Of a stretch of 39,374 nt of DNA, positions 3,417 through 31,371 are shown one piece after another. This stretch comes from a virus (taxonomy: Duplodnaviria; Heunggongvirae; Uroviricota; Caudoviricetes). The stretch lies in the IMG/VR virus record IMGVR_UViG_3300029009_000036, positions 1 through 39,374 of that record. One strand, 5' to 3'. The stretch's first letter is position 1; each line of letters opens with the position of its first letter. A program made the position numbers and the translations under genes. Under the pieces are notes generated by a model. That model had not been told where the DNA came from. It made no database searches and was given only the letters and a program-made list of their open reading frames with translations.

Positions 3417-3754
3417 CGGCAAAAAGGAATGTGGGGACAGGGGCGAATCAGATACCTGATATGGGTAGCTTCACGCTTTCTGTTTCAGGTACTGGATATC
3501 AAAAATTACCATCTGGTTTTATTCTTCAGTGGGGCTCAATCGGCGCTCCAGGCATTGCACAGGATGTGGTAACCCATTTCCCGATTGCATTTCCGAACAG
3601 ATGTCTGCGTGTTTTGGTCTCACAAGACTACACACCAGATAGCGGGGCTGTTGGTTATATTGCCTGTGCAGGTTTTAGTCCCGACCCGGTTAAATTTATA
3701 TCCAGAGCCAGTACTCCAGGTCTCGGCGCTTCATTTTTAGCGTTAGGCTGTTAA
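3402..3754 (+). other. Alternative tail-fibre C-terminal coding segment (silent orientation, no own start)
   Basis: Open frame encoding ...[23 protein letters not shown]..., a tail-fibre C-terminal-like sequence, beginning at the left crossover site and followed by its own tfa gene. Confidence 0.5.
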
Positions 3755-3775
3755 TTTAGCTATATGGAATGAGAA

Positions 3776-4216
3776 ATGAATTATATATATTCCGCGACTA
3801 CAAACTCTTTCTATCCGTTAGAGATGAAAGAGGATTACACTCAAGCTGACTCATGGCCAGATGATGCTGTTGAAGTTGACGAGCAGGTGTATATTGAGTT
3901 TTCCGGATTACCGCCGAAAGGAAAAATCCGTATCGCTGGAGAAAATGGTTTTCCTGCATGGTCTGAAATTCCACCACCAACACATGAGGAACAGATTGCT
4001 GCAGCCGAACTGGAAAAGCAGCAATTGATTAATCAGGCCAACGATTATATGAACAGTAAACAATGGCCTGGTAAAGCGGCTATTGGTCGTCTGAAAGGTG
4101 AGGAACTGGCGCAATATAATTTGTGGCTGGATTATCTGGACGCACTGGAACTGGTTGATTCCTCCAGTGCTCCAGATATTGAATGGCCTACGCCTCCGGC
4201 AGTTCAGGCCAGATGA
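3776..4216 (+). CDS. Tail fibre assembly protein (alternative copy, Tfa family)
   Basis: 146 aa; C-terminus ...LWLDYLDALELVDSSSAPDIEWPTPP shares the conserved Tfa C-terminal motif with the convergent 4188-4781 gene. Confidence 0.8.
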   Translation: MNYIYSATTNSFYPLEMKEDYTQADSWPDDAVEVDEQVYIEFSGLPPKGKIRIAGENGFPAWSEIPPPTHEEQIAAAELEKQQLINQANDYMNSKQWPGKAAIGRLKGEELAQYNLWLDYLDALELVDSSSAPDIEWPTPPAVQAR

Positions 4217-4781
4217 CGTCCGGCGCGGTGCTGGTATCTGTTGCCGTCACCGCGTCAATGTAATCCAGCACGGCGTTAAGTCGGGTTGTTTCTGCCTGAG
4301 TCAGTTTCCGTCCGGCCTGTAATTTCAGCTGAATCAGACTAATGGAAGCCATTGCTGCATCAATCAGTGACTGGCGCTGTGCTTCTGCCGCGTCTACTGC
4401 GGCACTGTGTTGTGCCTCAGTGTCTGTCACCCATTTCTCACCATCCCATTTATCGTATGGCGTTAACGGTGAAATCGTGACATAACCGTCTTTGATGGCA
4501 CCGATATAATCCACTGTAGCAGCAGCACCATTTTCGATTGAGTAAACGGTCTCATTGCGATGGTCTTCTTCATGGCTCCATCCCTTACCTGTAAATACTG
4601 CCACTCTTCCCGGAATGTTTTCGCCAAGGTCAATACCAGTGGAATAGGCGGGCATACTTACGCCAGTATTAATATATTCATCAGACCAGCCCGTATACTC
4701 AGATGTTTCAGCATCATAATAAAAACAACGCATATCGCCCGGCACTGTAGCCAGCCCATTTTCATCAAAAACAGGTTTCAT
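4188..4781 (-). CDS. Tail fibre assembly protein (Tfa family, expressed orientation)
   Basis: 197 aa; ATG at 4781 overlaps tail-fibre stop (TAATG); C-terminus ...AVLDYIDAVTATDTSTAPDVIWPELPEA. Confidence 0.85.
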   Translation of the reverse strand: MKPVFDENGLATVPGDMRCFYYDAETSEYTGWSDEYINTGVSMPAYSTGIDLGENIPGRVAVFTGKGWSHEEDHRNETVYSIENGAAATVDYIGAIKDGYVTISPLTPYDKWDGEKWVTDTEAQHSAAVDAAEAQRQSLIDAAMASISLIQLKLQAGRKLTQAETTRLNAVLDYIDAVTATDTSTAPDVIWPELPEA

Positions 4782-10573: not shown

Positions 10574-10589
10574 GGCGTCACCTCAAATA

Positions 10590-10616
10590 AAAACCGCGTG
10601 TAAACGCGGTTTTTTA
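10590..10616. terminator. Bidirectional rho-independent terminator
   Basis: Perfect 10-bp stem aaaaccgcgt / acgcggtttt with gtaa loop, T-run on plus strand and A-run giving U-run on minus strand; 14 nt downstream of moron stop. Confidence 0.7.
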
Positions 10617-17475: not shown

Positions 17476-17523
17476 AATTCTTCACCCGTCAGAACAGGGG
17501 CGCGGTTCCGCGCCCCTGAGTGA

Positions 17524-18729
17524 TTACGCCACTGCAATCTTCAGCAGTTTGATGGCCTGCGAATCGACCAGCATGCCGCCGGTGCGTTTGGTGGTATAAA
17601 AACCGACAAACGGTTTATTGGTGTACGGGTCGCGCAGAATGCGGGTGCCGATACGGTCAACGATGGTGTAACCCCGTTTGAAGTTACCAAATGCAATGGC
17701 TTTCGCATCAGCGGCGATATCCGGCATCTGTTCGTTTTCAGCGATACCGTAACCCGCCAGAGAGGACGGCTGCCCCAGCTCCAGCCCCGGACGCCACAGA
17801 TAGTTACCCTCGCTGTCTTTCAGCAGACGGATGGCAAACAGGCTGTTGTTGTTCATCATGAACTTCGCGCCTGTGCGGTGTGCCTTACGCAGCGTGTAAA
17901 TCAGTTTGATAATGGCGTCTGCGGTCACCGCCGTCGCGTCGCCGGATACAATATGCTGAAGTTTGCCGAACGCCCGGACCTTATCGGTTTCATCCGTGGA
18001 TTCATACGCCAGGAACCCTTTCGGCTTCTTGGTACCATCGCCGGTGGTAAAGGCAATTTCTTCCTGTTCGGCAAATTCGGTTGCCAGCTCGCTGTTGATC
18101 CATGCTTCCACGTTGAAAAAGGCATCATCCAGCATTTTCTGGGTGGCCTGCGGGTTACCGTAGATTTCCCCCATGAAAGGTTCAATCAGGCCCAGTTTTG
18201 AGGTGGCAGTCTGGGAGCGCGCGTCAGTCTCGCCAACCCATCCGGAAGCCGTGCCGCCCAGATTCACCAGTTTTTTATAGTCGGAACCACCAACGGTGAT
18301 CACCGTGGCTTCCTGGCGCATCACCACTTCATCTTTCAGCAGGGTGAGAATGTTGCGATCCAGTGCTTCCGGCACGGCATAGCCGCCGTCTTCATCGGTG
18401 CCCACCTGTAATGCCTTGCGCTCCAGATCGCGCAGACCATCTTCACGGCCTTTACGCAGGAAGCCCACAAACGCTTCTTTATGCTCGGTGGCCAGTTTAT
18501 TTTGCGCACCACCTGCCGGACGTTTCAGCTCAAGCAGCTCTTTTTCAAGATCGCTTTTGAGGTTTTCCAGCTCGCTGAGTTTCCCGTTCAGGGTTTCCAC
18601 CTGCCCGGCAAGCTTGCCTTTTTCCTGCTCAATCGCATCCACGCGCTTGTCGTTCTTTGCTTTGAAGTCGTCAAACTTCTGCTGCAGCTCCTGCGCGACC
18701 TGTTCGACATCTTTAATATCAACCGCCAT
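17524..18729 (-). CDS. Major capsid protein (HK97 fold with N-terminal coiled-coil delta/scaffold domain)
   Basis: 401 aa, ATG at 18729; N-terminal ~120 aa strongly coiled-coil (EQVAQELQQKFDDFKAKND...), followed by capsid-like domain; follows protease gene. Confidence 0.9.
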   Translation of the reverse strand: MAVDIKDVEQVAQELQQKFDDFKAKNDKRVDAIEQEKGKLAGQVETLNGKLSELENLKSDLEKELLELKRPAGGAQNKLATEHKEAFVGFLRKGREDGLRDLERKALQVGTDEDGGYAVPEALDRNILTLLKDEVVMRQEATVITVGGSDYKKLVNLGGTASGWVGETDARSQTATSKLGLIEPFMGEIYGNPQATQKMLDDAFFNVEAWINSELATEFAEQEEIAFTTGDGTKKPKGFLAYESTDETDKVRAFGKLQHIVSGDATAVTADAIIKLIYTLRKAHRTGAKFMMNNNSLFAIRLLKDSEGNYLWRPGLELGQPSSLAGYGIAENEQMPDIAADAKAIAFGNFKRGYTIVDRIGTRILRDPYTNKPFVGFYTTKRTGGMLVDSQAIKLLKIAVA

Positions 18730-20806: not shown

Positions 20807-22540
20807 TTAAAGCGAGCGGATCCCATAGGACTCAATGTGGTCAGACAGCGTGTCTTCTTTCTCGTACAGCATGGCTCTGCCAACCGCCATAATCAGCGCA
20901 ACTGCACCATCGATTTTGTTTTCCGCCTGCTCTTTGACGGGCTTCACCACATCATCGTTACCCGGAATGGTTTTGCCGACCACGTTGCCGATACACCAGG
21001 TCATGATGGGATTGCCATCATGATGAAAGCGCCCCGATTCAATTGCCGCTTCCAGCTCTTTCATCGGATCGGACATGTTGGTGTAGTTCTGAATGATAGT
21101 GATGGGGTTCAGGTCTTCATCAGCAAGGTCATGTGACAACCCGGTCGCCCCAAAGGGGTCGATGGGTGACTCACTGACCGGGCTGATTTTGTTCGCCGCT
21201 TTGGCCTCCTCGAGGATGTAGCGATAATCCACCTCCGCACCATCGGTAACGGTCAGAACGCCCATTTCCACCCATTTCTGAAAGCGTTCGGCTGTCCGGC
21301 GATCTTCATTTTTCTCGACGCTGTACACCGTGTCATACGGTACCCAGAAACGCGGGGCCACACTGTAGTAATGCGTTTTACCGTCAATCTCGCGGGTATA
21401 AAGTCGCGCCATGCTGTTCATATCCAGCTTACGCGCCAGGTCAAAGGCCAGAATGCACGGCTGCCCCTCGAACTGCTCAAGGGTCAGTGATTTATCCTCG
21501 CAGCTCTGCCAGCTCACCAGGTTGAAATACGCCGAACGCGCCGACACCCAGATATTGAGGTGTTTTGTTTTAAAGACGTTTGCCAGACGGGCGTTATTTT
21601 TCGCACGCTGCTGCTGACTTAACAAAAATTCGCGATAAACCGACACGCCAATATTTGGATTGGCTTTTTCCAGCACCTGCGGGTCGGTCCAGTCGTCACC
21701 TTCATCAACGGTATAGATGATCCCGAACAGTTCATCGTTAGGCACCGAGCCGTTGAGCATCTCGATGACTTCCCGCCGTTTGTCGTAGCACGGCCCCTCA
21801 ATGTTGTACCCGGCGGTAGTGATAGCCCACATCAGTGGCTGACGTCGCGCCCCCATCCCGGTAAGCATCGTGGTGTAAAGCGCATCTGTGGCGTGCTCGT
21901 GATATTCATCCACCACCGCACAGTGGGGTGATGAACCATCACCGGGGTTACCGATCAGCGGTTCAAAACGCGCACCATCCTCCGGACGGTTCATGTTTGA
22001 GGCGTTAACCTCAATCCCGAACGCTTCCGTCAGCATGGGTGTGCGTTTACACATCAGTCTTGCCGGACGAAAGACTTCCCATGCCTGTTTCTCCGTCGTG
22101 GCACCGGAATACACTTCCGCGCCGAACTCGTTATCACAGGCAAAACAATACAGGGCGACACCGGCAGAGATTGCCGATTTGCCGTTCTTACGGGGGATTT
22201 CGGTATACACCTCACGGAAGCGGCGCAGCCGGGAGCCTTTATTGACCCAGCCAAACGCGCAGCAGATCACAAAGAGCTGCCACGGCTCCAGCGTGATGGG
22301 CATCCTCTTAAATGCCCACTCACCCTTGGTGTGCGGCAACAGCTGAATAAATTTGGCGGCCCGTTCAGCCAGGTCCTTGTCGAAGCGGTAACGAAACGAC
22401 TTACTTTTTTCCGCCATCAGGTCATCAAGATGGCGCTGGCAGGCCTGAATCACAAACTGGCAGGCCACAATCTTTCCGCGCACGACATCCCGGGCATACT
22501 GATTTGCAGCATTTACGTTGGGGTAAGATTTCCGGCTCAT
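20807..22540 (-). CDS. Terminase large subunit
   Basis: 577 aa, ATG at 22540; 4-nt overlap with small-subunit gene. Confidence 0.9.
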
Positions 22541-23031
22541 GATTCGATAATTTTCAGAAACGGGTTAGTGGCTTTCTTCTGCCCCGCCAGGCCAATCAGA
22601 CGCTGGCGGCTGCTGGGGTCGAGTCCGAGCATTGCCCCCGTGCTGCTCATCTCGGACTCCTGTTCTTTTTTGGCGGTCAGCTCCGGATTTTTGACCCTGC
22701 CGCCCATTGCACCGGTGATGGTGTTGCCCTGTATGGCAATATTTTTCACGGCACGTCGCCAGAACTCGTAGGCCACGCACCACCGCTCAAGTACCGCCAG
22801 GTCAGTCACGCACAGCAGGCCCTGACCGCAGAGTTCTTTGGTTGTCAGTTGCCACATGATCGTGGCGAGAGGGAGATCTTCTTCAGCGAACCACTCTGGT
22901 GGCTCAACACCTTTGATGGGCGTAAAAACAGGTTCATCTTTGTTCAGGGCTCGCTTGCCGGGGTTTCCGGCCAGCGCCTTGCGCGCCGTTGGCTTGGGGC
23001 GACGCCCGGAACGCCCCGCCGTTCCAGCCAT
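22537..23031 (-). CDS. Terminase small subunit (P27-like)
   Basis: ORF-track start 23040 is GTG with no spacer to an SD; ATG at 23031 ([14 protein letters not shown]...) has CAGGAG ~9 nt upstream. Confidence 0.75.
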
Positions 23032-23040
23032 ATGCGGCAC

Positions 23041-23156
23041 TCCTGGTTAAATTTCATTTTTCGCGGGTATAAAAAAACGATGGGGCGGGCAGTCCGGAAG
23101 ACGTCAGGTCACAGGGATTTGACCCGCCCCTCCCCTCTGGCAGTGGGAACTGGTTC
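23041..23156. other. Candidate cos / packaging-site region between HNH and terS
   Basis: Non-coding 116 bp containing inverted GGGGCGGG...CCCGCCCC; HNH-cos-TerS arrangement is the norm in HK97-like cos phages. Confidence 0.3.
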
Positions 23157-23507
23157 TTACTTCAGCCGTTCACGGGCCGTCTTCGCCTTATGACACGGCC
23201 AGCACAGGCTCTGCAGATTGCTGTCGGCATCAGTGCCGCCATGCGCTTTAGGGATGATGTGGTCAACGGTTTTCGCCTCGCGCACCACACCGGCACGCAA
23301 ACACAACTGACACAGGCCTTTGTCACGCTTTAGTACACGCCCCCGGATAACATCCCATTTCGAACCATAACCGCGCTGGTGTCGGGACTGGCCTGGCTTG
23401 TATTGCTTCCAGCCCTCGCTTTTGTGGCTTTCGCAATAACCTGACGGGTCAGTCGTGGTATGGCGGCAGCCGCGAACTCGGCAGGCTTTTGGGGTTCGTG
23501 GTGGCAT
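23157..23507 (-). CDS. HNH endonuclease (terminase-associated)
   Basis: 116 aa from ATG 23507 (GGAG 5 nt upstream): MPPRTPKACRVRGC...CQLCLRAGVVREAKTVDHIIPKAHGGTDADSNLQSLCWPCHKAK has CxxC...DHI.P...N...CxxCH HNH signature. The longer ORF to 23606 uses TTG inside the repeat. Confidence 0.8.
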   Translation of the reverse strand: MPPRTPKACRVRGCRHTTTDPSGYCESHKSEGWKQYKPGQSRHQRGYGSKWDVIRGRVLKRDKGLCQLCLRAGVVREAKTVDHIIPKAHGGTDADSNLQSLCWPCHKAKTARERLK

Positions 23508-24017
23508 ATGTACTCCAATGAAGAAGCTACCGACATAGCCTCCTCCATTCGTCGTGAAACTATTTTCATCTACCCAGTAATGAATTCTTTGAAGAGTCGA
23601 GATCAATACAACTCACTGATGGGAGAGGCTTGCCTCACGCGTGAGGCAAGCCTCCTGTTTGATTTACTGGACAGTATAGGGGGGCAGAATGCCTTCCTCA
23701 CTCGAATAACATCAATTACGGAGCTTCAACACGGGTCAGTCGTGGTATGGCGGCAGCCGCGAACTCGGCATGCTTTTGAGGTTCGAGGGAGCATATGTAC
23801 TCCAATGAAGAAGCCACCGACATAGTCTCCTCCATTCGTCGTGAAACTATTTTCATCTACCCAGTAATGAATTCTTTGAAGAGTCGAGATCAATACAACT
23901 CACTGATGGGAGAGGCTTGTCTCACGCGTGAGGCAAGTTTCCCGTGTGATTTACTTGACACTATAGAAGGACAGAATGCCTTCCTCACTCGAATAACATC
24001 AATTAAGGAGGTTCAAC
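23431..24017. repeat. Tandem direct duplication, ~287-bp unit, two copies plus junction fragment
   Basis: 23444-23730 and 23731-24017 align at ~90% identity; each unit carries the first ~21 codons of HNH and a long palindrome; junctions share tcg(c)aataac. Confidence 0.85.
23625..23654. repeat. 30-bp perfect palindrome (degenerate second copy at ~23911-23940)
   Basis: gaggcttgcctcacgcgtgaggcaagcctc is its own reverse complement; no adjacent U-run, so not a canonical intrinsic terminator. Confidence 0.8.
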
Positions 24018-24140
24018 ATGTTTCATTCCACAAGTCATCAGGCTGTAATTATGGTAGCATCAGTTTGTGCCACATACCTTTTCCGCTTCACTTTGAGTCT
24101 GATTCATTTCTACCTGACCGGCTCGCCTCTATCTTTCTAA
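24018..24140 (+). CDS. Hypothetical small hydrophobic peptide (40 aa), antisense to o-spanin 3' end
   Basis: Near-consensus SD taaggagg (24004-24011) 6 nt before ATG 24018; MFHSTSHQAVIMVASVCATYLFRFTLSLIHFYLTGSPLSF; no promoter identified. Confidence 0.25.
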   Translation: MFHSTSHQAVIMVASVCATYLFRFTLSLIHFYLTGSPLSF

Positions 24141-24363
24141 TCCCCGCTTTGTCAATATTGCATTGTCCCAACGCTGACAACAGACTCACATTCAACTCCA
24201 GACTGGCACCATACGTCAGCGGATTGGGTATAAACGGTACAGGAGTATCAGAAGTCAGGCTGGCTGGCAGTGGTGCCACCGGAGCGCTCACGTAAACCGT
24301 TCGCGAATTTCCGCAACCGGTCAGCAGCGACAGCAGGCACAGGACGTGAAGCACAATCATCAT
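24088..24363 (-). CDS. o-spanin (Rz1-like outer-membrane lipoprotein)
   Basis: ATG at 24363 in +1 frame inside Rz; MMIVLHVLCLLSLLTGC... has lipobox LLTGC; Pro-rich mature part; extends past Rz stop (overlapped architecture). Confidence 0.7.
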   Translation of the reverse strand: MMIVLHVLCLLSLLTGCGNSRTVYVSAPVAPLPASLTSDTPVPFIPNPLTYGASLELNVSLLSALGQCNIDKAGIRKIEASRSGRNESDSK

Positions 24364-24640
24364 CCGCAACAGCCACTTTGATATCTTCCTGGGTTCTCTG
24401 TGACTCCAGTGTGATCTGCTGTTTTGCATGCTGGTTAGCCTCCAGAACTGTATTGACGATTTGCAGTGATTGCAGGACGTTATTGGTAATGACAGTTGCC
24501 GATTTGGCATTTTGTACAGCCTCATCAGCACGTTTCTTTTCGTGCTGATATTTGCTGTAGTAGTGGTTGGCAGACCAGATGAAAGAACCAATGACAGTAA
24601 AGAAGAATGCAGCGATAACCAACTTATAGCTCAACTTCAT
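24248..24640 (-). CDS. i-spanin (Rz-like)
   Basis: 130 aa, ATG at 24640; N-terminal TM helix LVIAAFFFTVIGSFIW then coiled-coil periplasmic domain; follows endolysin. Confidence 0.75.
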   Translation of the reverse strand: MKLSYKLVIAAFFFTVIGSFIWSANHYYSKYQHEKKRADEAVQNAKSATVITNNVLQSLQIVNTVLEANQHAKQQITLESQRTQEDIKVAVADDDCASRPVPAVAADRLRKFANGLRERSGGTTASQPDF

Positions 24641-25100
24641 TTACCACCCCACCAGCCTCTTTAAACCGGGCAATCAGATCACCGATTTTATGTTCATACT
24701 GACCGTAACCAGCACCCGGCAATGAAGCCCAGATATTGCTGCAACGGTCGATTGCCTGACGGATATCACCGCGATCAATCATCGGCAAAGCGCCACGCTC
24801 TTTAATCTGTTGCAATGCCACAGCGTCCTGACTTTTGGGAGAGAAGTCTTTCAGGCCAAGCTGATTACGGTAGGCATCCCACCAACGGGAAAGAAGCTGG
24901 TAACGTCCGGCAGCTGTTGATTTGAGTTTGGGGTTTAGCGTGACAAGTTTGCGAGGGTGATCGGAGTAATCAGTAAACATTTCACCACCGACAATAACAT
25001 CATAACCGTGGTTACGTGTCGGTTGTCGCCCGTTATCCGTTCCTTCTGACCATGCAACCATATCCAGGAAAGCTTTACGCTGGGAATTTAGTACCTGCAT
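24624..25100 (-). CDS. Endolysin, lambda R-like lytic transglycosylase
   Basis: 158 aa; ...QRKAFLDMVAWSEGTDNGRQPTRNHGYDVIVGGEMFTDYSDHPRKLVTLNPKLKSTAAGRYQLLSRWWDAYR... near-identical in pattern to lambda R as recalled. Confidence 0.9.
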   Translation of the reverse strand: MQVLNSQRKAFLDMVAWSEGTDNGRQPTRNHGYDVIVGGEMFTDYSDHPRKLVTLNPKLKSTAAGRYQLLSRWWDAYRNQLGLKDFSPKSQDAVALQQIKERGALPMIDRGDIRQAIDRCSNIWASLPGAGYGQYEHKIGDLIARFKEAGGVVNEVEL

Positions 25101-25103
25101 AAA

Positions 25104-25445
25104 TTACTCCTTAGAGCCACCAAACTTGTTACCGATTACTCTCATTGCAGCCCCACGAATAGCATCGACACCGATCAACCCAACACCACCACCAATGGCA
25201 ACAGAAAGCGATTTAGGCCATCCGACATACTCAAGAGCGGATGCAAAAGTCAGCGTCAGAGCGCCGCAGAGCAAAATCTCGAGCGTTTTTCGCTTCCAGC
25301 CACCACCACCGCCAAAATAGGCAATGCGCAAGCCAGCCATAACGATCGACATAATTACTGCGCCCAGCGGTGTGTCTCCACGCCACCAGCTCTGTAACAA
25401 TTCAAGTAAGTCAGACCAGGAATGAGGATCGTTATGCATTTTCAT
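25104..25445 (-). CDS. Holin with dual-start motif
   Basis: ORF opens at GTG 25454, but ATG 25445 (GGAGGTG RBS) and ATG 25439 give the M-K-M dual start seen in lambda S; hydrophobic helices follow. Confidence 0.7.
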   Translation of the reverse strand: MKMHNDPHSWSDLLELLQSWWRGDTPLGAVIMSIVMAGLRIAYFGGGGGWKRKTLEILLCGALTLTFASALEYVGWPKSLSVAIGGGVGLIGVDAIRGAAMRVIGNKFGGSKE

Positions 25446-25537
25446 AATTCCCACCTCCGGTTATCGGAAGTGCAACGAGTGAAGGGAAAGAAGCTGGTTA
25501 TAGCGCTGAGTCGCAAAAGTTGCGTAGTGCACAAAAA

Positions 25538-26107: not shown

Positions 26108-26860
26108 TTATCTCGTCACTTTTCTTAATTGCGCCTCAGCATATGCTTCTTCCTGCCAGCACTTTGTCACCAGTTTATCAATGACATCTGCATATCCTTT
26201 GTACCACTGATAATCCGTCAGGTCTGGTACCAGCTTCTGGACATGATGCCGCGCCAGTGTGGTTGGTAAACGGCTAAACCGATTTCCATTGCAACGCCCA
26301 CAAATCTTATAAACAGGCGTGCCATGAAGCCGGGTCCTTTTTTCATCCAGGACAATACCTTTACCCTTACACCCTCTGCACGCGGTGCTGACTTCTCCCT
26401 TACCATGACAATGCTGACATAGTTCCTTCACCCACTCTTCCTTGATAACAGATTCCCCGCTTCTGGAGTGTTTCACCACTTCGCGCAATACATTATGAGA
26501 TCCAGTACCAGCACAATGCTCACAGCGAGCCTTACTTGCCGCAGACCTGGAATAATCAGCAAAGGCAAAATTCACAAGGTAAGGGATGATCTGTAACCGG
26601 GTTTCTTCACTCAATTTGTTCAATGTCGGGTTATCCAGTGCCATCGCGTAATTGAGCAGACCTTCAATCGCAAATTGAGGATCCTGAACACCAACTTTTG
26701 CCAGGAATAAGGCAAACCCAAGCGGTGCTTTCGACTGCACCATCCCCTGCGCAGCCATCACATCCGTAATCGTTAAACCACCTGAGCCTGTCGCCGGTGC
26801 GTCATCGCTCAATTTTGGAGATTTTGGGGAGTAATATTTTGGTAAGGCTTCAAGGTTCAT
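26108..26860 (-). CDS. Late-gene antiterminator Q (QuuQ-like)
   Basis: ORF-track start 26902 is GTG; ATG at 26860 (MNLEALPKYY...) has GGAGA RBS and gives 250 aa; four CxxCxGxG zinc-finger repeats; lies between DUF968 gene and pR'/lysis cassette, as in E. coli Qin (ydfU-quuQ) from memory. Confidence 0.7.
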   Translation of the reverse strand: MNLEALPKYYSPKSPKLSDDAPATGSGGLTITDVMAAQGMVQSKAPLGFALFLAKVGVQDPQFAIEGLLNYAMALDNPTLNKLSEETRLQIIPYLVNFAFADYSRSAASKARCEHCAGTGSHNVLREVVKHSRSGESVIKEEWVKELCQHCHGKGEVSTACRGCKGKGIVLDEKRTRLHGTPVYKICGRCNGNRFSRLPTTLARHHVQKLVPDLTDYQWYKGYADVIDKLVTKCWQEEAYAEAQLRKVTR

Positions 26861-26873
26861 GCTCGTTCTCCAC

Positions 26874-27869
26874 TTACGCCAGTACGCCAATTGCCAGCGC
26901 ACGATCGATAAAACGAAATATCAGCTCCAGCTGGGAGCCATACTTCTCTTCAAATGCCACGGTATCCGCATGCAGCTCGTCGTGATGCTTTCTGCACAAA
27001 GGCAACACAAAAAGGTCATGCGCTTTTGTTCCCATTCCACCCTGACCGTGACCTATCAGGTGGTGGGGATCATCAGCGGGCTTTCCACAACATGCACACG
27101 GCTGTGTCTTAACCCAGCGCGTGTACTTTTCATTAACCCAGCGGCGACGTTTTGGGCGTAACATAAAAGACTCCGGCGACTCCGGATCCACTTTCAGCGC
27201 CAGCACCTTTTTCGCCTTATCCTGGATGATGCTGGTGGCAGGAACCGAAGGCACAAGGTCACTTTCCCGGGTAACAGACGGCACAACAGGCTTCGGTAAT
27301 CTCAGTGCCTTACGGGCTGCACTTTCCGGTAAGGCATCCGCCAGATCATTACGAATCAGCCACCAGCACAGTTCCGGCATTGTCACAACGTGACTGTCAT
27401 CAAAACCGAGATCCCGACGCACAACAGACAACACCCAGCGGGCACAGTTATCCGTTGCCATTGATTCCAGCCGTTCCGTGAACTGATCGCGCAGCTGGTT
27501 ATCGCAGTGCCAGCACAGACGGATTGCACCCGGAGCGTGTCGCATTGTGGTCATGTTCTCGCTGTGCCAGTCGGAATGAGGCCACTGGCAGCCTTTTTCA
27601 CGAAGTAACCAGCTTTCAAGACATTCCACGCCACCAGCACGACGGATCACTGCCTCATTGCGGAACACGGCCCGAACGGCAGGATCATCCGCCAGCGGTT
27701 GTGATGCCGCCGGAACGGCACCACTGGCGAAAGATGAATAACGCTCCGGCTCAGGCTCCAGCAGGACACGCCCCTGCATAAACAGGGGCATCAGCTCTGA
27801 ACCTGGCCTGAACAATACGATCCCCATACGCGGGGCAATTTCAGGGGTCAGTAGTGCTCTCACGGTCAC
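26874..27869 (-). CDS. DUF968-family protein (YdfU-like) with C-terminal HNH-like zinc motif
   Basis: 331 aa (GTG start at 27869, uncertain); C-terminal ...CACCGKPADDPHHLIGHGQGG...CRKHHDELH. Confidence 0.65.
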   Translation of the reverse strand: MTVRALLTPEIAPRMGIVLFRPGSELMPLFMQGRVLLEPEPERYSSFASGAVPAASQPLADDPAVRAVFRNEAVIRRAGGVECLESWLLREKGCQWPHSDWHSENMTTMRHAPGAIRLCWHCDNQLRDQFTERLESMATDNCARWVLSVVRRDLGFDDSHVVTMPELCWWLIRNDLADALPESAARKALRLPKPVVPSVTRESDLVPSVPATSIIQDKAKKVLALKVDPESPESFMLRPKRRRWVNEKYTRWVKTQPCACCGKPADDPHHLIGHGQGGMGTKAHDLFVLPLCRKHHDELHADTVAFEEKYGSQLELIFRFIDRALAIGVLA

Positions 27870-30552: not shown

Positions 30553-31371
30553 TCACCCCCTGAATCCTGCCGGGATCTGGCTGTAGTCCACATTGTCGTA
30601 ACTGGCTTTGAAGTACGGGTCTTCACGTCTGGCTGCAGATACCGCAGGAACTTCCCAGGATTCTTCGAAATGACGATCCGGACCAAAGAACGTGACAGCC
30701 TGTTTCACAAATTGTGTGCCGCTGTTACCCATCGCAGATACCCAGCCCGCGTAGCGTTTCACACCTTCCAGCATGGTTTCGGGGTTTACCCCCTCATTCA
30801 AACGGGCTTTCCAGGCTTTGAAGGCTGCAGATTTTGAATTGCCACCAGCACGTTTGGGATATGCCAGCCATGCCTGCTCAAACTCCGGAGAGTATTCCGG
30901 TCGGTTTGAACGAACTCGCACGGACTCATCAACTGATGCACCAACAGCTATTGGTTCATTGACTGGTTCTTTGACTGGTTCAAAAGAGTGACTGGTTCTG
31001 GGTGAATCTCCTGCACTACCCCCTGGTGCAACTCCTGCACTACCTAGTGAATTTGCTGCACCAGATAGTGAATTATTTGCACTACCCCCTAGTGAATCTC
31101 CTGCACCATCCAGATGAAGGAGATAGATATTACTTGAGTTACCTTTTTCACCTTTCCGGGTGACTTTTTTCACCAGCCCGGACTCACAAAGGGCCGCAAT
31201 ATGATTCATCACAGAACGTTTGCTAATCTCGCACTGGTCAGCAATATGCTGGTAGCTGGGCCAGCACTCACCCTGATCGCTGGCATTATCAGCCAGCTTG
31301 ATCAGAACCAGTTTTCGCAATGGATTACCCACTCGAATTTTCATCGCTTTAACCATCAGCTCCATACTCAT
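30553..31371 (-). CDS. Replication initiation protein (N-terminal HTH, lambda O-like organisation)
   Basis: 272 aa, ATG at 31371; N-terminal winged-helix-like region; central low-complexity linker GDSLGGSANNSLSGAANSLGSAGVAPGGSAGDSP encoded by iteron repeats. Confidence 0.75.
   Translation of the reverse strand: MSMELMVKAMKIRVGNPLRKLVLIKLADNASDQGECWPSYQHIADQCEISKRSVMNHIAALCESGLVKKVTRKGEKGNSSNIYLLHLDGAGDSLGGSANNSLSGAANSLGSAGVAPGGSAGDSPRTSHSFEPVKEPVNEPIAVGASVDESVRVRSNRPEYSPEFEQAWLAYPKRAGGNSKSAAFKAWKARLNEGVNPETMLEGVKRYAGWVSAMGNSGTQFVKQAVTFFGPDRHFEESWEVPAVSAARREDPYFKASYDNVDYSQIPAGFRG
30959..31110. repeat. Iteron cluster (putative origin of replication) inside replication gene
   Basis: Three copies of tgactggttc (30960-30969, 30972-30981, 30989-30998) followed by five ~21-24-bp repeats of agtgaat..ctgcac(t/c)a between 31002 and 31110. 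Confidence 0.6.

What the first reader, a model, noticed from the sequence alone, without database searches (positions are those of the whole stretch)
23431..24017. 287-bp tandem duplication with a 30-bp perfect palindrome at the head of the packaging operon
Two ~90% identical units duplicate the first ~21 codons of HNH and its upstream region, including the perfect palindrome gaggcttgcctcacgcgtgaggcaagcctc (23625-23654; second copy degenerate). It lies between the lysis cassette and HNH/terS. The palindrome has no U-run, so it is more likely a protein-binding or RNA-processing site than a terminator. The second copy carries a decoy HNH start (MLPRTSKACRVRGCRHTTTDP).
Basis: seen in the sequence. 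Interest (0 to 1): 0.55.

Follow-up and report, generated by a model that had tools for sequence, protein, structure and literature searches.

The report
Duplicated HNH leader with conserved hairpin
A 287-bp stretch just upstream of a prophage's HNH packaging nuclease gene really is duplicated head-to-tail and carries a structurally conserved hairpin, but the duplication looks like an inherited recombination scar rather than a new regulatory device.

Summary
Window 23444-23730 and 23731-24017 are tandem 287-nt copies (19 mismatches, no indels). Each holds the first 21 HNH codons plus 223 nt of non-coding leader with a 30-bp palindrome, perfect in the inner copy. It is not an assembly artefact: the exact junction occurs in 19 of 5426 complete E. 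coli genomes, 6 IMG/VR contigs and 7 metagenome contigs, never with more than two copies. About 1200 E. coli genomes, SfIV and O157:H7 prophages carry one copy. All carriers share one junction (about 1 nt of microhomology), and most share the same mutated decoy start (MLPRTSKAC...DPC*). This fits a single illegitimate recombination event later spread by recombination. In every non-window-type carrier examined (11 loci, including three sampled E. coli genomes), the block sits beside a dead HNH remnant and a lambda-type terminase. It therefore travels as a passenger, not as an HNH regulator. The palindrome keeps its pairing through compensatory changes although it is the most variable part of the element. 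That favours a nucleic-acid hairpin over a protein site. It is 534 bp from cos, matches no Rfam family, and has no U-run on the sense strand and only a weak one on the antisense strand. Function is unproven. Interest is low.

The parts
23444..23730 (-). Inner (HNH-proximal) copy of the 287-nt unit: 223-nt non-coding leader plus HNH codons 1-21 of the real gene
   Evidence: 98-99% identical to single-copy loci L091/L004
23731..24017 (-). Outer (Rz1-proximal) copy of the unit; its leader is identical to single-copy locus L106, and its HNH piece is the mutated decoy
23730..23731 (-). Duplication junction ...ACTGACCCGT|GTTGAAGC... (HNH codon 21 joined to leader position 1), about 1 nt of microhomology; same position in every two-copy locus
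23625..23654 (.). Perfect 30-bp palindrome; 13-14 bp hairpin with a 4-nt loop, -26.4 kcal/mol on either strand
23912..23941 (.). Degenerate copy of the palindrome: -12.3 kcal/mol as minus-strand RNA (C.A mismatches), -22.0 as plus-strand RNA (G.U wobbles)
23726..23794 (-). Decoy ORF with intact SD and ATG: MLPRTSKACRVRGCRHTTTDPC*. P2L and P6S fall at residues that are Pro in the intact HNH starts aligned here; the stop lies just past the junction
23157..23507 (-). HNH endonuclease gene (116 aa, PF01844), the packaging-associated type placed next to cos
   Evidence: PMC3592412 abstract
23082..23091 (-). cos cohesive-end sequence TGCCCGCCCC (determined experimentally for SfI), between HNH and terS
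22537..23040 (-). Small terminase subunit (Terminase_4 / P27 family)
24088..24363 (-). Rz1/LysC o-spanin gene, whose stop lies 70 nt upstream of the repeat
23566..23622 (-). Conserved box downstream of the hairpin (unit positions 109-165); nearly invariant in all variants and identical in both copies. The outer-copy equivalent is 23853-23909
24005..24140 (+). Plus-strand TAAGGAGGT-N5-ATG plus a 40-codon ORF at the outer edge of the repeat. The signal is conserved but the peptide is not

Best explanation
The prophage is an SfV/SfIV-like, HK97-type cos phage. Its late operon runs Q - holin - endolysin - Rz/Rz1 - HNH - cos - terS - terL on the minus strand. Between Rz1 and HNH lies a lineage-specific non-coding module confined to Escherichia/Shigella phages, and it contains one stable hairpin. 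In an ancestor, one illegitimate recombination event joined HNH codon 21 to the first base of this leader, using about 1 nt of microhomology. That event created a 287-nt tandem duplication. (The shared junction is shown; the single event is inferred.) Homologous recombination in the flanks and inside the copies then moved the two-copy block between lambdoid phages, so the copies now differ by 7% or more. (The different haplotypes and backgrounds are shown; the mechanism is inferred.) The outer partial HNH is a decaying pseudo-start. It probably still yields a 22-residue peptide during late transcription, but the duplication has no demonstrated function and is best read as a tolerated scar. The palindrome itself appears to be selected as a nucleic-acid hairpin. 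Its most likely role is as an intercistronic stem-loop in the late (minus-strand) mRNA, acting as a 3'-exonuclease barrier or processing point between the lysis and packaging segments, much like REP-type intercistronic hairpins. That role is inferred, not shown.
For: The repeat and palindrome are real. Single-copy relatives include SfIV, O157:H7 prophages and about 1200 E. coli genomes. The junction is found in 19 complete genomes and 13 further contigs, always with 2 copies. Junction position is identical in all, and the same decoy substitutions are shared across carriers with different outer-copy leaders. Backgrounds differ. The window type has an intact HNH and a P27-type terS. In L103, L093 and L100, homology to the window ends 162 nt upstream and 83 nt downstream of the repeat. 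That type has an HNH remnant (C14Y, frame lost after about 49 codons, called a pseudogene by PGAP), a Nu1/A-type terminase and at least two different lysis cassettes. The decoy carries P2L and P6S. For the hairpin, 4 of 13 pairs change on both sides, and 85.9% of cells are paired against 25-46% in slid controls. No shuffle out of 500 reaches the observed covariation score. The hairpin is the most variable 40 nt of the element (diversity 0.22 against 0.01-0.08 in the flanks). 1-nt indels rule out coding on either strand. Other GC-rich intercistronic hairpins exist in this late operon.
Against: No transcript data are available, so the hairpin's role in mRNA is inferred only from position and structure. 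Hairpin energies favour the plus strand in 15 of 18 variants, which does not fit a minus-strand mRNA role, although it rests on only about 4-5 versus about 3 independent substitutions. The L127/L258 haplotype has a different, unmutated decoy right up to the junction. That requires either gene conversion or a second event at the same nucleotide. The block has persisted through several recombination events and into backgrounds where HNH is dead. That could mean it has a function of its own rather than none. The covariation rests on a shallow family (at least 80% identity) of related sequences.
Confidence: 0.68

Rival explanations
1. The hairpin is a plus-strand intrinsic terminator. It would either stop antisense transcription coming out of the packaging genes or form the 3' end of a cis-antisense RNA covering the HNH translation start. 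The duplicated unit would then carry a whole antisense gene.
For: The scan flags 23625-23654 as terminator-like on the plus strand (13 pairs, tail CTGTTTGATT). A U-rich tail ending in UGAUUUA follows the stem in almost every variant. 15 of 18 variants fold better as plus-strand RNA because minus-strand A.C mismatches become G.U.
Against: No sigma-70-like promoter was found on either strand in 22500-25500 or by eye upstream of the hairpin. There is no plus-strand gene upstream. The U-tract is interrupted, and the outer copy is not flagged. Terminator-like hits in the region are not enriched over shuffles (5 against 3.1). The strand asymmetry rests on few independent events. There is no Rfam match.
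Confidence: 0.14
2. The duplication is adaptive. Doubling a palindrome lets the two copies pair with each other into a long-range duplex of about 30 bp in the late mRNA. That would be a good RNase III substrate, uncoupling lysis from packaging mRNA or tuning HNH expression. Alternatively, the decoy start could act as a regulatory upstream ORF.
For: Both the MFE and the centroid of the 541-nt two-copy leader pair the two palindromes with each other. The arms at 23629-23654 and 23912-23937 are 96% complementary over 26 nt. The decoy keeps a good SD and ATG in all carriers. The block has survived transfer into several backgrounds.
Against: It is rare: 19 of about 1200 element-bearing E. coli genomes. 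All 11 non-window-type carriers examined have a dead HNH downstream. The decoy has nonsynonymous changes at residues that are Pro in the intact HNH starts aligned here. Co-transcriptional folding would favour local hairpins. Inter-copy complementarity is poorer in the common haplotype. Copy number never exceeds two.
Confidence: 0.08
3. The palindrome has no function. Its symmetry is kept by a mutational mechanism, hairpin-templated strand switching at quasi-palindromes, which copies a change in one arm onto the other.
For: The hairpin is the fastest-evolving part of an otherwise nearly invariant element, and adjacent double changes are mirrored on both arms (TCA/TGA to CAA/TTG). The family is very shallow (at least 80% identity). 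Half-converted intermediates exist (C.A in the outer copy). Template-switch mutagenesis at quasi-palindromes is established in E. coli (own knowledge, not checked in the paper library).
Against: This does not explain why a stable stem of at least 13 bp is retained in every lineage, including SfIV where an outer stem is rebuilt differently. Imperfect copies persist without being corrected.
Confidence: 0.1
4. The palindrome is the binding site of a dimeric DNA-binding protein (an operator or a packaging accessory site).
For: It has perfect dyad symmetry, and mirrored changes in both half-sites are also what a co-evolving dimer site would show.
Against: The half-site sequence is the least conserved part of the element among phages whose neighbouring genes are nearly identical. 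Complementarity runs continuously through the centre. The site is 534 and 821 bp from cos, whereas the HK97 small-terminase site lies 15-29 bp from the cut. The site also occurs in phages with an unrelated terminase and a dead HNH.
Confidence: 0.04

Closest known systems
HK97-type packaging module: HNH endonuclease (gp74-like) - cos - small and large terminase
   Same: The gene order HNH-cos-terS-terL is the same. The HNH is a small PF01844 protein with an N-terminal CxxC. The SfI cos overhang TGCCCGCCCC is present 65 nt after the HNH stop (PMC3592412 abstract).
   Different: The feature under study lies upstream of HNH and outside the cos region that HK97 work defines as functional (-80 to +472, terS site at +15 to +29). 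It also occurs beside lambda-type terminases.
Mosaic 'moron' region between the lysis cassette and cos of lambdoid phages (for example lambda bor, O157 prophage iss)
   Same: The position is the same. The content is highly mosaic: 38 different 60-nt sequences abut near-identical HNH genes. iss/bor lies on the opposite strand next to the element in O157 and L122 loci.
   Different: The element encodes no conserved protein on either strand (1-nt indels; ORF40 pN/pS of 2-3) and has no recognisable promoter. It therefore does not meet the promoter-gene-terminator definition of a moron.
Intercistronic stabilising hairpins of polycistronic mRNAs (REP/BIME-type, for example malE-malF) and the hairpins that follow phage capsid genes
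   Same: It is a stable GC-rich stem-loop without a U-run in a transcribed intergenic gap. The structure is conserved while the sequence drifts. Similar hairpins occur elsewhere in this late operon.
   Different: It has no sequence relation to REP/BIME and is a single-locus element, not a dispersed repeat. A stabilising effect has not been tested.
Canonical intrinsic terminators placed just upstream of HNH in sister phages
   Same: They occupy the same position relative to HNH. Several alternative modules carry a GC hairpin there (L037, L044, L068, L082, L024).
   Different: Those have a T-run on the sense strand directly before the HNH SD. This hairpin lies 125 nt upstream of the ATG and has no sense-strand U-run.

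Membership tests
Tandem duplication by illegitimate recombination | Head-to-tail copies with a novel joint absent from single-copy relatives | tested here: met
   Period 287 with no indels. SfIV and O157 prophages lack the joint.
Tandem duplication by illegitimate recombination | Same joint in all carriers (single origin) with little or no microhomology | tested here: met
   ...GACCCGT|GTTGAA... in all 2-copy loci, with 1 nt (T) shared. Caveat: the L127/L258 haplotype differs up to the joint.
Intrinsic (Rho-independent) terminator | GC-rich stem-loop immediately followed by a U-tract on the transcribed (sense, minus) strand | tested here: not met
   The stem is present (-26.4 kcal/mol), but the sense-strand tail is UCCCAUCAGUGAG.
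Intrinsic (Rho-independent) terminator | The same on the plus strand, with a transcription unit ending there | tested here: inconclusive
   The tail CUGUUUGAUU is flagged for the inner copy only. No promoter or gene lies upstream on the plus strand.
Palindromic operator / protein-binding site | Half-site sequence conserved among phages that share the binding protein | tested here: not met
   The arms are the most variable segment (diversity 0.22) while the flanks are nearly invariant.
cos / terminase recognition elements | Located within the cos region next to the cut site (HK97: -80 to +472, terS site at +15 to +29) | tested here: not met
   cos is at 23082-23091. The palindromes lie 534 and 821 bp away, on the far side of HNH.
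RNase III processing site | About 20 bp or more of (near-)continuous dsRNA | tested here: inconclusive
   The local hairpin is only 13-14 bp. A duplex of about 30 bp between the two copies is predicted thermodynamically. Cleavage is not testable here.
Known RNA family (Rfam 15) | Match at or near the gathering score | tested here: not met
   The only hit is a chance miRNA match: 20.9 bits against a 58-bit threshold, E = 2.4.
Small protein gene (plus-strand ORF 24018-24140) | Purifying selection on the peptide and/or a family match | tested here: not met
   SD, ATG and the 40-codon length are conserved in 28 loci. However, pN/pS is 2-3 in its own frame, higher than in the other frames. There is no Pfam or PHROG hit and no promoter.

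The most novel reading that the evidence does not exclude
The Rz1-HNH spacer could be an undescribed autonomous cis-regulatory RNA module of Escherichia/Shigella lambdoid phages. It comprises an invariant box containing the exact 16S 3'-end sequence ACCUCCUUA, a hairpin that varies in sequence but conserves its structure, and a second invariant box. The anti-SD box and hairpin would control translation or processing of the late mRNA. Alternatively, on the other strand, they would provide a translated leader and a terminator. The duplication would double the module and allow a long-range RNase III duplex of about 30 bp.
Probability: 0.12. Interest if true: 0.45.

Novelty: new member of a known kind. 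Interest (0 to 1): 0.18.

Why it matters
If the main reading is right, this matters mostly as housekeeping. It explains an odd repeat and a 'decoy' start at the lysis/packaging boundary as a scar of illegitimate recombination. The scar has then been shuffled between lambdoid prophages, which makes a clear small example of mosaic evolution. It also warns annotators not to call the decoy or the antisense ORFs as genes. The modest open lead is the non-coding module itself, which is present in about 22% of complete E. coli genomes and is unannotated in every record examined here. It has two nearly invariant boxes around a co-varying hairpin. Should it prove to be a late-mRNA processing or translation-control element, it would add a regulatory layer between lysis and packaging gene expression in HK97-like temperate phages.

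Tried and rejected
(1) Assembly artefact. Rejected: the junction is found in 19 complete genomes and 13 other contigs.
(2) Packaging signal. Rejected on distance from the mapped cos site and on HK97 terS-site data.
(3) Known RNA family. No Rfam match.
(4) Promoter in the unit. The sigma-70 scan found none on either strand. Inspection by eye found a perfect TTGACA in the outer copy but no -10 at a usable spacing.
(5) Coding capacity of the unit. Long ORFs exist on both strands (23795-24295 plus strand; an in-frame N-terminal extension of HNH), but 1-nt indels among relatives break them, and there are no PHROG or Pfam hits.
(6) Plus-strand 40-codon ORF with a perfect SD. Start signal and length are conserved, but pN/pS of 2-3 argues against a conserved protein.
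(7) iss/bor link. In O157 and L122, iss lies beyond the element with its own upstream region, so it is not informative about the hairpin.
(8) Strand of the functional RNA from G.U against A.C. It leans to the plus strand, but there are too few independent events to decide.
(10) Distant homologues. None were found beyond Escherichia/Shigella phages and 3 E. coli plasmids.
(11) A phage-wide repeated motif. The palindrome occurs only at these two places in the window.

Full report
**Observation.** The window carries two head-to-tail copies of a 287-nt unit at 23444-23730 and 23731-24017. The repeat finder and TRF both report them (TRF score 1017, no indels). A direct count gives 19 mismatches, or 93.4% identity. 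All genes here are on the minus strand: Q antiterminator 26108-26902, holin, endolysin, Rz 24248-24640, Rz1/LysC ending at 24088, then the repeat. After it come HNH 23157-23507, terS 22537-23040, terL 20807-22540 and portal. Each unit holds 223 nt of leader plus HNH codons 1-21. The inner copy has a perfect 30-bp palindrome at 23625-23654. It is the longest perfect palindrome in the window, and none is expected by chance. The outer copy's version (23912-23941) is degenerate. The outer copy keeps the SD and ATG and encodes MLPRTSKACRVRGCRHTTTDPC*, which stops just past the junction.

**Context.** Megablast places the region in the SfV/SfIV/SfI/ST64B group of HK97-like cos phages, and several of those records end inside this region. 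The SfI paper determined the cohesive end as TGCCCGCCCC (PMC3636060). That sequence sits at window 23082-23091 on the minus strand, between the HNH stop and the terS start. The palindromes are therefore 534 and 821 bp from cos. In HK97 the small-terminase site lies 15-29 bp from the cut, and the functional cos region was bounded at -80 to +472 (PMC11331095). A packaging role is unlikely.

**Not an artefact, but rare.**
- An 80-nt probe across the junction matches continuously at 100% in 19 of 5426 complete E. coli genomes, from human, pig, plant, street and probiotic sources.
- The unit region as a whole is present in 1209 genomes, nearly all with one copy.
- SfIV and the O157:H7 prophage have one copy.
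- A junction-specific pattern finds 6 IMG/VR contigs and 7 genuine metagenome contigs. None has more than two copies.

**Origin and spread.** Every two-copy locus has the joint at the same nucleotides...ACTGACCCGT|GTTGAA..., with about 1 nt of microhomology. All but one haplotype share the same decoy substitutions, which change P2L and P6S. These are residues that are Pro in the intact HNH starts aligned here.

The outer-copy leader differs between carriers. In the window it is identical to single-copy locus L106, and in L117/L103 it resembles the O157 type. The flanking phages also differ:
- The window type (the window itself plus four E. coli genomes) and L117 have an intact HNH and a P27-type terS.
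- In L103, L093 and L100, homology to the window ends 162 nt upstream and 83 nt downstream of the repeat.
- In all 11 non-window-type carriers examined, including three sampled E. coli genomes, the inner copy is followed by an HNH remnant. It has a zinc-knuckle Cys changed to Tyr, loses frame after about 49 codons, and PGAP calls it a pseudogene. It sits beside a Nu1/A-type terminase, with at least two different lysis cassettes.

The simplest reading is one illegitimate recombination event followed by homologous exchange that carried the block into other lambdoid phages. A third haplotype (L127/L258) has an unmutated decoy (MPPRIPKVC...) right up to the joint and an intact inner 5' end. This needs either gene conversion from a real HNH or a second event at the same nucleotide, and I cannot decide between them. 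Because the block mostly sits beside a dead HNH and is rare, I read the duplication as a tolerated scar, not a regulator of HNH.

**The leader is a separable non-coding module.**
- Only 9 of 80 IMG/VR loci with HNH at least 96% identical have this leader. The others carry 30 or more unrelated sequences up to about 20 nt before the ATG, several with canonical sense-strand terminators.
- In L122 the first 198 nt of the element are separated from HNH by an insert of about 350 nt.
- Distant-mode BLAST finds the element only in Escherichia/Shigella phages and three E. coli plasmids, at 80% identity or more, and it is never annotated.
- One-nucleotide indels among variants exclude coding on either strand.
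- Rfam gives nothing.

**The hairpin.** Across 18 distinct variants, 4 of the 13 stem pairs show changes on both sides that preserve pairing (for example CCTCACG/CGTGAGG, GTCTCAC/GTGAGAC and GTCCAAC/GTTGGAC).
- 16 cells show such double changes, against 5.9 ± 1.8 in shuffles and 0-5 in slid controls.
- 85.9% of cells are paired, against 25-46% in slid controls.
- No shuffle out of 500 reaches the observed covariation score.

The stem is nevertheless the most variable 40 nt of the element (pairwise diversity 0.22), while the flanking boxes are at 0.01-0.08, below HNH itself. Structure is kept while sequence drifts. This favours a nucleic-acid hairpin over a protein site with conserved half-sites. 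The family is shallow and its members are related, so the statistics are indicative only. Hairpin-templated strand switching at quasi-palindromes could also produce mirrored changes without selection.

**Which strand.** On the sense strand the stem is followed by UCCCAUCAGUGAG, so it is not a terminator there. On the plus strand it is followed by CUGUUUGAUUU, and the scan flags the inner copy as terminator-like. The outer copy folds at -12.3 kcal/mol as minus-strand RNA but at -22.0 as plus-strand RNA, and 15 of 18 variants fold better as plus-strand RNA. This reflects only about 4-5 substitutions favouring the plus strand against about 3 favouring the minus strand. I also found no promoter or gene that would send plus-strand transcripts into the hairpin. 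The late mRNA is the only transcript certain to cover it. I therefore favour an intercistronic stem-loop acting as an exonuclease barrier or processing point, and I keep the plus-strand terminator as the main rival.

**A consequence of the duplication.** Both the MFE and the centroid of the 541-nt two-copy leader pair the two palindromes with each other into a duplex of about 30 bp (26 nt at 96% complementarity). A one-copy phage cannot form this, and it is long enough for RNase III. Co-transcriptional folding would favour the local hairpins, so this remains a speculative but testable reading.

**Side observation.** The plus strand reads TAAGGAGGTTCAACATG at 24005-24020. This is a 9-mer perfectly complementary to the 16S 3' end, at ideal spacing from an ATG, and it opens a 40-codon ORF. 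Signal and length are conserved in all 28 distinct loci. However, the peptide shows pN/pS of 2-3 in its own frame, matches no family and has no promoter. On the mRNA strand the same 9-mer is ACCUCCUUA, and RNAalifold pairs its CUCC with the HNH SD without covariation support. In window-type inner copies this motif carries two substitutions. These are the only differences from the closest single-copy relative over 223 nt. They are absent from L258, so they are not a necessary by-product of the duplication.

**Verdict.** The feature is real and inherited. The duplication is an ordinary recombination scar carried as a passenger. The palindrome is a structurally conserved hairpin of unproven function, lying in a lineage-specific non-coding module.

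Noticed in passing
window 24005-24140 (+): TAAGGAGGT-N5-ATG (a perfect 9-mer complement of the 16S 3' end) opens a 40-codon ORF antisense to the Rz1 3' end. Signal and length are conserved in 28 loci, but the peptide is not (pN/pS 2-3). There is no promoter and no family hit. On the mRNA strand the motif is an anti-SD mimic, ACCUCCUUA.
   Followed up: partly
window 23719-23724 versus single-copy L091: The inner copy differs from its closest single-copy relative only by two substitutions (unit positions 7 and 12; window 23724 and 23719), both inside the 9-nt SD/anti-SD motif and within 12 nt of the junction. The L258 haplotype lacks them.
   Followed up: partly
L103 (oriented) 3503-4417; L248-L250: Two-copy block followed by an HNH remnant (C14Y, frame lost after about 49 codons; a PGAP pseudogene) and a lambda-type Nu1/A terminase. 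This is evidence that an HK97-type packaging module was replaced by a lambda-type one, leaving the HNH 5' end behind.
   Followed up: partly
L002 4431-5027; L122 5472-6265: In O157:H7 and related prophages, an iss/bor lipoprotein gene lies on the opposite strand just beyond the element. A 117-nt remnant of an Rz1 3' end is kept between them, although a different, complete Rz gene follows.
   Followed up: partly
L037, L044, L068, L082, L024 (60 nt upstream of HNH): Sister phages with near-identical HNH carry unrelated upstream modules. Several end in a canonical sense-strand intrinsic terminator directly before the HNH SD, which implies that late transcription must read through them.
   Followed up: no
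window 17495-17518 and 10589-10614: There is a GC-rich hairpin (CAGGGGCGCGG/CCGCGCCCCTG) just downstream of the ORF at 17524-18729 (capsid by position; not checked against a family library). There is also a symmetric AAAAACCGCGT/ACGCGGTTTTT bidirectional terminator-like hairpin in the tail region.
   Followed up: no
window 30952-31106: A cluster of short tandem repeats (periods 12, 21 and 24 nt, up to 4.6 copies) lies inside or next to ORF 30553-31371. It looks like replication-origin iterons within a replication gene.
   Followed up: no
window 26108-26902 (-): The Q antiterminator (PF03589) carries a DnaJ-type CXXCXGXG zinc-finger region.
   Followed up: no
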